Below are positions 51,201 to 54,200 of a DNA stretch of 64,000 nucleotides, piece after piece. This stretch comes from Escherichia coli (GTDB lineage Bacteria; Pseudomonadota; Gammaproteobacteria; Enterobacterales; Enterobacteriaceae). The DNA lies in NCBI RefSeq assembly GCF_002854065.1, contig NZ_CP024147.1. One strand, written 5' to 3'. The number at the start of each line of letters is the position of its first letter. The stretch's first letter is position 1. Position numbers: made by a program.

Positions 51201-54200
51201 GTCAGCGCATTCATTTTCTGCCCTTGTTCAGTGGTGGTGCGCTGATTAGCCTCATTTTGAGCCGCCAGTCTGGCATTAATCATCTCCTGATAATGCGCGG
51301 TATTTTGCGTATCTCCAGTCGCGGCGAGCGTTTTTTGTGTGGCTACGATCTACGCCTGTTGCTCTGTAATTTGCGTTTGCTGGGCGTCAGTTACCGCAGA
51401 CTGTCGGGCGTTGATCATGCTCTGATAACGGGCAGTTGTCTGTACATCACCTGTAGCGGCAACGGTTTTTTGTCCTGCGTCAGGATCTGTCTGGACAGTG
51501 GGAGTCTGAGTGGTATCAGGTGTTTCAGAAGGGATGTAGTGATGTTCAGTCAAATAGGTATACGCAGCGGGGCTGTTGTCTGTGCGTTCTAAAAAGCGGG
51601 TAATCTTCTGCTCAATCTCCGATTGCGACATGCCAGAGTTAATGGCTGAAAGCTCTGTTGCCGCCGCTTCAATGGTATCACCAGCTAAAACAACAGGGCT
51701 AGATGTTGCTGAAATTATGAGTGCCAGTAAAGCTACGTTTACAGTTTTCATTCATTTTCTCTTGTTCAAAATAAGTCGTATTAATGTTTCTATAAGAAAC
51801 AAATAATATTGTTTTAAGAAATAAACTGCGTTGCAATTTGATCGAAATCTACGCCGCCATTTATGTGATGTAAAGCGCATTTTTGTTTGGTGTAAGCGTA
51901 AATACCACCAATAAGAAACAAAAATTGTTTCTTTTATAAATAAAAAAGGAAAACATTTCGTGCTCTTTCAATGTAAAAAAGAGTAAAGACTAGTTTTGAT
52001 AAGCGAAATAAATTCTGTTTCTGGACTAAACGTGAAGCGGTTCCTGATGTGTGCTAAAATGCGTTTCTTTGATAAATCTCAATTTTTAAGAGGTTTACGC
52101 CAGGCAGGAAAATTTAAATGAATGAATTTGAGAAGATTTTTAATGAAATGAATCTGGACCGGGCATTGCTACCGATCCTTTTTCGTTCGAACCGGTCGAC
52201 AGTGTGGAAGTATTTAAGCGGCGATAGTACGGCTCCTGCCTCTGCCATGTCGCTGATTATGCTGTTGCAGTTGATACAGAAACGAAACCCCGATCTGTTA
52301 GCCGAATGGTTAACGCTTTCTGATTTCACCATTCCGCCAGAAGTTTACCTGGACCAGCCTGATTACTGGAAAGGGTGGGTGTATACCCAACACAAGGTCA
52401 ATAAAAACGTCCTGGAATATCTAAAAAAACACTATCCGGATGAAGACCAAAAAAGTATGGGTAAAGGCAGGGAAGAGTAATTTTGCCTCTACTCGGCTAT
52501 ATGCCGGATGCGGCGCAAGCGCCTTATCTGGCCTACGATTCGGGCATATTTTGTAGGCATGATAAGACGCGTCAGCGTCGCATCAGGCGATGACCGCACG
52601 GATGATCAGCGTTATCCCTTCTATCGCAATGACTTCAACATGCGTACCTGCGCCGAGATCCTCGCTGGCGCTGACAGGCCATGAACTGTCACCGACGCGC
52701 ATATGACCGCGCCCGTTGACCAGCGGAGATTCCAGCACAAAACGTCGGCCAATCAGCTGCTGCCCGCGCTGGTTTAAATGACTGTCGCTGTGCTTTTGTT
52801 CGCGCACCCGCCGCGACAACCATTTCCACCACAGCCAGGCGGCGAGCAGCGTCAGGACGGCAAACATCACCCCTTGCCACTCCCAACCCAGCGGCACCAG
52901 CCAGACCACCAGGCCGGTAATCACCGCTGCCACGCCACTCCACAACAAATAACCATTTCCGCCCAGCATCTCGGCTGCTAGCAGCAACCCGCCGAGACTG
53001 AGCCAGAAAATATGTGGATGAACGACCATTAACTCCATCATTGCTGAGTCCGTTTGTTGGCGCTGTCTTTCACCAGCTCGGCAATCCCGGCAATCGACCC
53101 CATCAGGCTGCTGGCCTCTAATGGCATCATCACTACTTTGCTGTTACTGGAGGAACCGATCTGCTGTAACGCTTCGGTGTATTTCTGCGCTACGAAGTAA
53201 TTCACCGCCTGAATATCGCCGGAGGCAATGGCTTCAGACACCATTTTGGTGGCGCGGGCTTCTGCTTCAGCGGAACGTTCACGCGCTTCAGCCTGTAAAA
53301 ACGCCGACTGACGTTCGCCTTCCGCTTTCAGGATCTGCGACTGTTTTTCACCTTCGGCTTTGAGGATTTCCGCCTGACGGATCCCTTCCGCTTCAAGAAT
53401 GTAAGCGCGTTTGGTACGTTCCGCTTTCATCTGCGCGTTCATTGAAGAGATAAGCTCTGCCGGTGGGCGCACGTCGCGAATTTCAATACGGGTGACTTTA
53501 ATCCCCCACGGGTTGGTGGCTTCATCGACAATACGCAGCAGGCGTGAGTTGATGCTGTCGCGCTGAGAGAGCATTTCGTCAAGTTCCATTGAACCCAACA
53601 CGGTACGGATGTTAGTCATGGTCAGGTTGATGATCGCCAGCTCCAGATTGCTGACTTCATAGGCAGCGCGTGGCGCGTCAATCACCTGAATAAAACAGAC
53701 TGCGTCGATGGTAACGTTGGCGTTATCTTTCGAGATAACTTCCTGGGAAGGGATATCGAGCACTTGCTCCATCATATTGATCTTGCGACCAATGCGATCC
53801 ATAAACGGCACCACCAGACTGAGCCCCGGCTGTAACGTTTTGGTATAGCGACCAAAACGTTCTACCGTCCATTGATAGCCCTGCGGCACGATTTTGACGC
53901 CCGCGCCGACAATGACCAGCGCGACAAAAATGAGAATCGGGATAAAGATAAGCATCGGAAAAACCTCCTGTTGTACCGTCCATAATCAGCAAAATTGCTG
54001 CTTGATTAAACAAATTATACCTGATTACTGAAAGAGAGTTCCCCCTTATTCCTGCGAAGGATAAACTGTTTTTAGTAAAAATCAGAAAAAGGGAACAGCG
54101 ATGCAGGAAAATAGTCCTTTGCTTCAGCTACAAAACGTAGGATATCTGGCGGGTGATGCGAAGATTCTTAATAACATCAATTTTTCGCTGCGTGCTGGCG

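What the first reader, a model, noticed from the sequence alone, without database searches (positions are those of the whole stretch)
51752..52480. Very AT-rich divergent control region with a small HTH-like gene
About 360 bp between the adhesin-like operon start and the divergent 120-aa ORF is strongly AT-rich with A/T tracts, typical of horizontally acquired, nucleoid-protein-silenced promoters. The divergent ORF has a helix-turn-helix-like segment and could be a local regulator of the adhesin-like operon.
Basis: inference. Interest (0 to 1): 0.35.

Follow-up and report, generated by a model that had tools for sequence, protein, structure and literature searches.

The report
Adhesin-island control region with regulator gene
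This is the control region of a known mobile E. coli island (OI-29): a very AT-rich 366-bp stretch between a small surface-adhesin operon and an unstudied 120-residue gene, which I show has a DNA-binding fold and always sits beside such adhesin genes, so it is probably their local regulator.

Summary
Window 51752-52117 is a 366-bp intergenic region at 30.3% GC, against 55% for the window. It separates a YadA-anchor adhesin operon (minus strand) from a 120-aa ORF (52118-52480, plus strand).

- **Selection and pairing:** The gene is under purifying selection. It is paired divergently with a YadA-anchor gene in eight further locus types from other Enterobacterales, and with a fragmented, unconfirmed gene in a ninth.
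- **Conserved intergenic elements:** Both promoters, GAAAC/GTTTC palindromes, an exact CpxR-consensus repeat and an FNR-like palindrome survive although synonymous sites are saturated.

The parts
50027..50230 (-). Last gene of the adhesin operon: 67-aa protein with one hydrophobic helix, no family match.
   Evidence: ORF. Annotated as a hypothetical CDS in a 99.9%-identical genome. A 64-70-aa gene is called in the same place in L002-L005, L009 and L011. No Pfam, NCBIfam or PADLOC match.
50227..50649 (-). [not shown]
   Evidence: ORF with a lipobox-like N-terminus LLAGC. Annotated as lipoprotein in Sakai and O145. The z0638 primers map here. A gene of 137-172 aa lies downstream of the adhesin gene in five other locus types. 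No solved-structure relative.
50735..51751 (-). [not shown]
   Evidence: YadA_anchor E = 2e-12 and 1e-11. The C-terminus matches solved AtaA, Hia and YadA anchors. One nucleotide differs from the intact 338-aa allele in L001. The gmrA deletion, cloning and qPCR primers map here.
51752..52117 (.). 366-bp AT-rich divergent control region.
   Evidence: GC 30.3%, in the lowest 0.17% of windows. Intergenic length is 291-408 bp in all related loci, each at 27-38% GC.
51846..51874 (-). Predicted sigma-70 promoter of the adhesin operon: -35 TTTACA, 17-bp spacer, -10 TAGATT. Inferred start near 51839, leader about 88 nt.
   Evidence: It is the only promoter-like hit in the scan. Both hexamer blocks are conserved across genera, as GCTTTAC and TA(G/A)ATT. 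The start site is inferred, not measured.
51786..51800 (.). Palindrome A, GTTTCtataaGAAAC, inside the adhesin leader at about +46.
   Evidence: The arms are kept in four of five E. coli clades while the spacer varies; THO-008 has one arm change. Pseudocitrobacter has GATTC-N5-GAATC at the equivalent place, a symmetric change.
51915..51931 (.). Palindrome B, GAAACaaaaattGTTTC. It is the core of a perfect 9+9 inverted repeat, AAGAAACAA/TTGTTTCTT, about 84 bp upstream of the adhesin start.
   Evidence: Unique in the window, with 0 expected by chance. Arms are invariant in 5 E. coli clades while 4 of 7 spacer positions vary. GAAAC-N7-GTTTC is kept in Symbiopectobacterium. AAGAAC-N7-GTTCTT lies in the mid-intergenic region of the 32%-identity locus L018.
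51973..51987 (+). Exact match to the CpxR consensus tandem repeat, GTAAAaaagaGTAAA.
   Evidence: One of 2 exact matches in 64 kb. Exact in Pseudocitrobacter and L012, with one mismatch in L007 and L009. The consensus is recalled from the literature. Binding is not tested.
52005..52021 (.). Palindrome C, GAAATaaattctGTTTC. It has the same N7 architecture with one mismatch, about 54 bp upstream of the z0640 start.
   Evidence: The right arm, GTGTTTCTGA, is conserved across genera.
52052..52060 (+). Predicted extended -10 promoter of z0640, TGcTAAAAT. Inferred start near 52067.
   Evidence: Conserved as TGgTAAAAT, TGaTATAAT or TGcTATCAT in eight of nine aligned loci, and in L018/L019, although synonymous sites are saturated. 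It was not found by the scan, which requires a -35. This is an inference.
52069..52082 (.). Palindrome D, TTGATaaatcTCAA, at about +3 to +16 of z0640. It matches the FNR consensus TTGAT-N4-ATCAA at 9 of 10 positions.
   Evidence: It is perfect in L007 and L012. The 9-nt distance from the -10 is kept even in L012, where the intervening bases differ. It also overlaps the better of two weak matches to the H-NS motif.
52102..52109 (+). Shine-Dalgarno-like AGGCAGGA, 8 nt before the ATG of z0640.
   Evidence: Read from the sequence. Invariant in E. coli clades.
52118..52480 (+). z0640/ECs0549 orthologue: a 120-aa protein with an N-terminal XRE-type five-helix HTH domain (residues 1-70; recognition helix 26-34, NRSTVWKYL) and a helical C-terminal extension.
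52485..52591 (.). REP-type repeats forming the right edge of the island.
   Evidence: Sub-threshold naRNA4 (REP-derived) matches at 52462-52533 and 52556-52622. The OI-29 deletion primer R maps at 52592-52630.

Best explanation
The region is the shared divergent control region of O-island 29, a small mobile cassette. The cassette carries a short trimeric-autotransporter-type adhesin gene, a lipoprotein gene, a small membrane-protein gene and, on the other strand, z0640.

- As a dimer it recognises the GAAAC/GTTTC half-sites, which are arranged as palindromes with 5- or 7-bp spacers across the intergenic region.
- Through these sites it controls its own extended -10 promoter and modulates the adhesin promoter. 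Repression or fine-tuning is more likely than obligatory activation.
- Host signals probably enter through two conserved consensus-like sites: a CpxR-type tandem repeat upstream of z0640 and an FNR-type palindrome just after its start site.

**Shown:** the composition, the gene pair, the predicted fold, the conserved synteny, the conserved cis-blocks, and transcription of both genes (from the literature).
**Inferred:** the start sites, which protein binds which site, and the sign of regulation.
For: - **Real gene:** dN/dS is 0.06-0.11.
- **Synteny:** Homologues down to 32% identity sit divergently next to a YadA_anchor gene in eight further locus types, in different chromosomal contexts. A ninth, Symbiopectobacterium L005, has a fragmented neighbour with no Pfam hit. 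Intergenic length is 291-408 bp.
- **Cis-elements:** GAAAC/GTTTC is the most over-represented pentamer, with 6 observed against 1.0 expected (P about 0.001). It recurs at matching offsets in the other loci.
- **Footprint:** Arms stay invariant while spacers vary among E. coli clades. Arms change symmetrically in Pseudocitrobacter. In L018, where the recognition helix differs, a palindrome with an N7 spacer and changed arms is kept in the mid-intergenic region.
- **Constraint:** Promoter blocks are conserved although dS exceeds 2.7. The 145 bp next to z0640 has 1 variable site across clades, whereas z0640 dS is 0.06-0.17.
- **Shared control:** All three island genes are expressed in DMEM and fall together after cell attachment.
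Against: - The E. coli protein itself reaches no curated family threshold. Its best Pfam hit is E = 0.08, and hhalign to MqsA gives probability 15%.
- The palindromes could belong to a host factor.
- Palindrome D and the GTAAA repeat match host-regulator consensus sequences rather than the GAAAC motif.
- One close homologue on a short contig (L013) and one distant homologue (P0039) are not next to a YadA-anchor gene.
- Frameshifted z0640 alleles exist in some E. coli, so the C-terminal part, or the whole gene, is dispensable in some lineages.
- The promoter scan did not call the z0640 promoter.
Confidence: 0.5

Rival explanations
1. [not shown]
For: - GC is 30% inside a horizontally acquired island.
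- It has the highest A/T-tract density in the window.
- z0639 transcription is thermo- and osmo-sensitive: maximal at 37 C, low at 30 C and at high salt. This is common for H-NS-controlled genes.
- Nearby core genes qmcA and fetA are H-NS-bound in three other strains.
Against: - No H-NS occupancy or hns-mutant data for OI-29 were found.
- The genes are expressed in LB and DMEM, so they are not silent.
- A/T tracts and H-NS motif matches are no more frequent than composition predicts.
- Near-perfect conservation of 145 bp is not needed for H-NS binding.
- z0639 is expressed from a clone lacking z0640, so a counter-silencer is not required there.
Confidence: 0.25
2. [not shown]
For: - An exact CpxR-consensus repeat is conserved in several genera.
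- An FNR-like palindrome keeps a fixed 9-nt distance from the -10.
- The island shuts off after attachment to host cells, a condition reported to activate Cpx in EHEC (review text).
Against: - Both consensus matches are recalled patterns tested only for occurrence and conservation.
- The GAAAC/GTTTC motif matches no host-regulator consensus that I could name.
- Its arms change in the locus where the linked HTH protein has a different recognition helix. That fits a co-inherited factor better than a host one.
- The FNR-like site is absent in L009, L010 and L018.
Confidence: 0.2
3. [not shown]
Against: - It was listed earlier as a Saa-like adhesin.
- No DNA-binding family matches it. Only coiled-coil noise such as SMC-like models appears.
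- The only gene in the island with a DNA-binding fold is z0640.
- Motility was the only z0640 phenotype tested.
Confidence: 0.1
4. [not shown]
For: The best structural and Pfam resemblances are to HigA2, MqsA and Aca proteins.
Against: - There is no toxin-like partner ORF. The gene is monocistronic and followed by REP repeats.
- It has no zinc-ribbon domain, and no PADLOC hit or significant PHROG match.
- Pairing with YadA-anchor genes is conserved.
- The gene is under purifying selection.
Confidence: 0.05

Closest known systems
XRE / Cro-C1 family helix-turn-helix regulators (for example HigA2 C-terminal domain 5j9i, MqsA C-terminal domain 3fmy/3gn5, Aca2 7vjo, lambda cI N-terminal domain)
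   Same: - It is a small protein encoded next to palindromic sites overlapping its own promoter. That is the usual autoregulatory layout of this family.
   Different: - Sequence similarity is below every curated threshold.
- The family is tiny: 24 proteins in 1.84 billion representatives.
- It has its own 50-residue helical C-terminal extension.
- It has no toxin, phage or anti-CRISPR partner. Its constant neighbour is a trimeric-autotransporter gene.
[not shown]
   Same: - It is the same locus. The OI-29 deletion primers bracket exactly 2,643 bp in Sakai and map to 49986-50023 and 52592-52630 here.
Divergent adhesin/regulator gene pairs with AT-rich, H-NS-responsive control regions in E. coli (for example the pap pilus papI-papBA region; named from general knowledge)
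   Same: A small regulator gene is transcribed divergently from an adhesin operon across a long AT-rich intergenic region that carries several regulator sites and responds to temperature.
   Different: - It has no GATC/Dam-Lrp phase-variation sites, and no PapB- or PapI-type protein.
- The adhesin is a trimeric autotransporter and not a chaperone-usher pilus.
- H-NS involvement is untested here.
Short trimeric autotransporter adhesins (YadA, Saa, Eib, UpaG/EhaG, SadA with its lipoprotein SadB)
   Same: - The operon's first gene has a YadA_anchor and a coiled-coil stalk.
- A lipoprotein gene is co-transcribed. This recalls SadB, which assists SadA (from general knowledge).
   Different: - The passenger is very short (338 aa) with no recognised head domain.
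- The lipoprotein shows no sequence similarity to any solved structure.
- A dedicated divergent HTH gene has not, to my knowledge, been described for TAA loci.

Membership tests
XRE / Cro-C1-type HTH DNA-binding proteins | Five-helix bundle with helix 2-turn-helix 3 as the DNA-reading unit. | tested here: met
   [not shown]
XRE / Cro-C1-type HTH DNA-binding proteins | Sequence match to a curated family model (Pfam HTH_3, HTH_31, MqsA_antitoxin and the like) above its gathering score. | tested here: not met
   The best hit for the E. coli protein is MqsA_antitoxin at E = 0.082, 13.5 bits against a cut-off of 30. There is no NCBIfam hit. Other family members reach E = 2e-5 to 3e-4 for MqsA_antitoxin, Xre-like-HTH and HTH_3. 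hhalign to MqsA gives probability 15%.
XRE / Cro-C1-type HTH DNA-binding proteins | Sequence-specific DNA binding, usually as a dimer to a palindrome. | not testable with these tools
MqsA / HigA2-type antitoxins | Cognate toxin gene (mqsR or higB2 type) in the same operon. | tested here: not met
   No partner ORF is present. The gene is flanked by the intergenic region and by REP repeats. There is no PADLOC hit.
MqsA / HigA2-type antitoxins | N-terminal zinc-ribbon (MqsA) or disordered toxin-neutralising domain (HigA2) preceding the HTH. | tested here: not met
   The HTH starts at residue 3. The protein contains no cysteine. The extra domain is C-terminal.
H-NS-silenced xenogeneic promoter | Horizontally acquired DNA that is markedly more AT-rich than the host genome. 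| tested here: met
   30.3% GC against 55% for the window. The island is in 26% of genomes, and at other sites in other genera.
H-NS-silenced xenogeneic promoter | H-NS occupancy and derepression in an hns mutant. | not testable with these tools
   No data for OI-29 were found in the papers and supplements searched.
H-NS-silenced xenogeneic promoter | Little or no transcription under standard laboratory growth. | tested here: not met
   Published RPKM values are 20, 96 and 43.5 for z0638, z0639 and z0640 in DMEM. qRT-PCR shows expression in LB, highest at 37 C.
Trimeric autotransporter adhesin (the neighbouring gene) | C-terminal YadA-type membrane anchor. | tested here: met
   PF03895 at E = 2e-12 (window fragment) and 1e-11 (Sakai full length). 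It matches the solved anchors of AtaA, Hia and YadA.
Trimeric autotransporter adhesin (the neighbouring gene) | N-terminal signal peptide and an intact reading frame through to the anchor. | tested here: inconclusive
   The signal-peptide-like N-terminus MKTVNVALLALIISATSSPVVLA was judged by eye only. The frame is intact in L001 and Sakai, but in this window it is broken by TAG at codon 134.
CpxR-regulated promoter | GTAAA-N5-GTAAA tandem repeat near the promoter (consensus recalled from the literature). | tested here: met
   An exact match lies at 51973-51987, one of 2 in 64 kb, and it is conserved in other genera. Binding and Cpx dependence are not tested.
FNR-regulated promoter | TTGAT-N4-ATCAA palindrome at a functional distance from the start site (consensus recalled from the literature). 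| tested here: inconclusive
   A 9/10 match lies at 52069-52082. It is perfect in L007 and L012. Its position, about +10 from the inferred start, would fit repression. The start site and oxygen response are unknown.

The most novel reading that the evidence does not exclude
Probability: 0.3. Interest if true: 0.6.

Novelty: new member of a known kind. Interest (0 to 1): 0.42.

Why it matters
OI-29 is carried by O157:H7, O55:H7, O145:H28, many ExPEC and APEC lineages, EPEC E2348/69 and EAEC 042. It has been linked to flagellar motility.

More generally, the locus would give a defined and compact example of how a horizontally moving adhesin cassette brings its own regulator and plugs into host stress and oxygen sensing.

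Tried and rejected
- **First structure model:** With 10 close sequences it was poor (pLDDT 63.5). I discarded it in favour of the 24-sequence model.
- **Structure libraries:** The AFDB Foldseek library was unavailable.
- **RNA elements:** No Rfam family reaches its threshold. Neither inferred leader folds better than shuffles, with z = -1.25 and +0.56. A riboswitch or sRNA reading is therefore rejected.
- **Curvature and H-NS motif:** A/T tracts and matches to TCGATAAATT are not enriched beyond composition. AA/TT periodicity is weak, 0.11 at lag 11.
- **CRP site:** I considered a CRP site in the conserved TGTGAtgtaaaGCGCA block. I rejected it because the block coincides with the -35 of the adhesin promoter and its spacing to the inferred start (about -32) does not fit.
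- **Second FNR-like match:** The match at 51838-51851 is not conserved outside E. coli, so I treat it as chance.
- **Class II FNR activation of z0640:** Rejected because the palindrome-to-ATG distance varies from 31 to 45 bp between loci.
- **H-NS data:** Searches for ChIP or hns-mutant data on OI-29, under Sakai, EDL933, 042 and UTI89 locus tags, found nothing.
- **Recognition helix against half-site:** No clear covariation appears among the close orthologues. Only the distant L018 locus shows both changed.

Full report
**What is there**

The window is E. coli chromosome around cueR, ybbJ, qmcA and fetAB. Between cueR and ybbJ lies an accessory cassette. On the minus strand it carries three genes:
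- a YadA-anchor gene (50735-51751),
- a 140-aa lipoprotein gene (50227-50649),
- a 67-aa membrane-protein gene (50027-50230).

On the plus strand, after a 366-bp gap, sits a 120-aa ORF (52118-52480), followed by REP-type repeats.

The gap is 30.3% GC against 55.1% for the window. Only 0.17% of 366-bp windows are as low. It has the highest density of A/T runs in the window, but no more than its composition predicts.

**Identity of the locus**

- The 729-bp finding occurs once each in 1415 of 5426 complete E. coli genomes, always chromosomal, at 92-100% identity.
- In O157:H7 Sakai the genes are ECs0546, ECs0548 ('adhesin') and ECs0549 ('hypothetical').
- The primers of Yang et al. 2018 (PMC5826968, Table S2) map unambiguously. 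The OI-29 deletion arms bracket exactly the published 2,643 bp in Sakai.
- The 'gmrA' (z0639) deletion, cloning, expression and qPCR primers all lie on the YadA-anchor gene. The z0640 primers lie on the 120-aa ORF.

So the finding is the z0639-z0640 intergenic region plus z0640 of O-island 29.

**The small protein**

- 21 proteins in the 5.8-billion-sequence index,
- 24 in an exhaustive profile search of 1.84 billion representatives.

With those distant members as the alignment, AlphaFold2 gives a confident model with pLDDT 92.1 and pTM 0.81. It has five N-terminal helices followed by a helical extension. The structural evidence for the fold is consistent:
- Foldseek against PDB and against viral models gives the same picture.
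- Several family members individually hit MqsA_antitoxin, Xre-like-HTH, HTH_3 and HTH_26 at E = 1e-4 to 1e-5.

R26, at the start of the predicted recognition helix, is invariant. dN/dS against orthologues is 0.06-0.11.

The protein has no toxin partner, no zinc ribbon and no defence-system match. It is not an antitoxin.

**Conserved partnership**

Homologues were traced to their contigs. The neighbour on the opposite strand was as follows:
- Pseudocitrobacter (three loci): a YadA_anchor gene.
- An unnamed metagenomic enterobacterium (L007): a YadA_anchor gene.
- Three lineages at about 45% identity (L009, L010/L011, L012): a YadA_anchor gene.
- One lineage at 32% identity (L018/L019): a YadA_anchor gene.
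- Symbiopectobacterium (L005): a fragmented gene with no Pfam hit, so the pairing is unconfirmed there.

A lipoprotein-sized gene often follows the adhesin gene. The AT-rich gap is 291-408 bp. The chromosomal insertion sites differ, so the unit travels as a cassette.

The exceptions are one homologue on a short contig (L013) and one distant homologue in a mobile-element context.

**Anatomy of the control region**

Synonymous sites between genera are saturated, with dS above 2.7, yet discrete blocks of the gap are conserved.

*The two promoters*
- The adhesin promoter has -35 TTTACA and -10 TAGATT at 51874..51846 on the minus strand. It is the only hit in the consensus scan.
- The z0640 promoter is an extended -10, TGcTAAAAT, at 52052-52060. 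It appears as TGgTAAAAT, TGaTATAAT or TGcTATCAT elsewhere.

*The GAAAC/GTTTC palindromes*

GAAAC/GTTTC is the most over-represented pentamer, with 6 copies against 1.0 expected (P about 0.001). It recurs at matching offsets in the other loci. It forms three palindromes:
- A: GTTTC-N5-GAAAC, 51786-51800, inside the adhesin leader.
- B: GAAAC-N7-GTTTC, 51915-51931. It is unique in the window with 0 expected by chance.
- C: GAAAT-N7-GTTTC, 52005-52021.

Three observations suggest a protein reads the arms:
- In all five E. coli clade representatives the arms of B are invariant, and the arms of A are kept in four of five. The spacers vary.
- In Pseudocitrobacter the arms of A change symmetrically to GATTC/GAATC.
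- In L018, whose protein has a different recognition helix, the mid-gap palindrome is AAGAAC-N7-GTTCTT.

*Host-regulator-like sites*
- GTAAAaaagaGTAAA (51973-51987) is an exact match to the CpxR consensus repeat. It is conserved in several genera.
- TTGATaaatcTCAA (52069-52082) lies 9 nt after the -10 and matches the FNR consensus at 9 of 10 positions. It is perfect in two other loci, and its spacing is kept even where the intervening bases differ.

The 145 bp nearest z0640 show one variable site among E. coli clades whose z0640 genes differ at dS 0.06-0.17. The adhesin-proximal 90 bp diverge together with the adhesin allele.

No Rfam family and no unusually stable leader fold was found.

**Mechanism**

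- Adhesin promoter: site B at about -84 and site A at about +46.
- z0640 promoter: site C at about -54 and the GTTTC-flanked block D at about +3 to +16.

This layout suits autoregulation and coordinated control.

All three genes are expressed in DMEM at RPKM 20, 96 and 43.5. They fall to zero after 3 h on HeLa cells, which fits shared control. The CpxR-like and FNR-like sites suggest host inputs.

Which protein binds which site, the start sites, and the direction of control are all inferences.

**H-NS**

Composition and horizontal origin make H-NS binding plausible. The thermo- and osmo-sensitivity of z0639 transcription is compatible with it. Against the stronger claim:
- I found no occupancy or mutant data.
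- The locus is not silent in culture.
- Motif and tract counts add nothing beyond AT content.
- The strict conservation of the z0640-proximal half argues for sequence-specific factors.

I therefore rate 'H-NS-silenced' as untested and at most partial.

**Conflict with the literature**

- Its N-terminus resembles a signal peptide (judged by eye).
- It has a glutamine-rich coiled coil.
- It has a YadA outer-membrane anchor, at E = 1e-11, that matches the solved AtaA, Hia and YadA anchors.
- It was earlier listed as a Saa-like adhesin.
- Its only other matches are weak coiled-coil hits to SMC-like models.

I cannot judge their experiments. The one gene in OI-29 with a DNA-binding fold is z0640, and it was tested only for motility.

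In the present window the z0639 orthologue carries CAG>TAG at codon 134. That is the only difference from an intact allele in a 99.9%-identical genome.

**Verdict**

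Noticed in passing
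window 51350-51352 (minus strand, codon 134 of the YadA-anchor gene 50735-51751): The z0639/gmrA orthologue is split by an amber codon (CAG>TAG). This is the only nucleotide difference from the intact 338-aa allele in a 99.9%-identical genome (L001). In this strain the gene is probably a pseudogene or needs suppression.
   Followed up: yes
[not shown]
   Followed up: partly
window 25241-49619: A type I secretion locus lies upstream of cueR: a TolC-like gene, an intact 6527-aa BapA/SiiE-like giant adhesin ORF (26698-46281), an ABC transporter and a HlyD-type adaptor. The giant gene is split into two CDSs in O157:H7 Sakai and is reported as frameshifted in EAEC 042.
   Followed up: partly
window about 24904-25240: This is the only other region of the window as AT-rich as the finding, with a minimum of 28.7% GC over 366 bp. 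It lies upstream of the TolC-like first gene of the giant-adhesin locus.
   Followed up: no
window 22505-22519: The only other exact GTAAA-N5-GTAAA (CpxR-consensus) match in the window lies in the copA-glsA intergenic region.
   Followed up: no
L020 888-2198; L021 88-2565; L022 1184-2200 (E. coli O145 RM9467, THO-008, EC21Z-144): The adhesin gene differs in length between E. coli clades: 338 aa, 436 aa, and an apparently disrupted longer allele with 1.4 kb unannotated. The adhesin-proximal 90 bp of the intergenic region diverges with it, while z0640 and its 145-bp upstream region stay nearly identical.
   Followed up: partly
proteins P0006, P0016, P0018 (alignment A1): Some E. coli carry z0640 alleles that are frameshifted after about residue 77 or about residue 95. 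They keep the HTH domain but replace the C-terminal extension. P0018 represents 14 sequences.
   Followed up: no
window 50027-50649 and equivalents in L002, L004, L007, L009, L012, L018: A lipoprotein of about 140 aa and, in several loci, a membrane protein of about 67 aa are co-conserved downstream of the adhesin gene. They have no family or solved-structure match. They might assist adhesin biogenesis, as SadB does for SadA, but that is only an analogy.
   Followed up: partly
window 52462-52622: REP-type repeats between z0640 and ybbJ give sub-threshold matches to the REP-derived naRNA4 family. They mark the right edge of the island. Sakai has about 75 bp more here.
   Followed up: partly
window 53955-54101 (qmcA-fetA divergent region): The core genes ybbK (qmcA) and ybbL (fetA), 1.5 kb from the island, are listed as H-NS-bound in a published ChAP-seq comparison of K-12, SE11 and SE15 (PMC4720273, S2 Table). 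cueR is not listed as bound.
   Followed up: no
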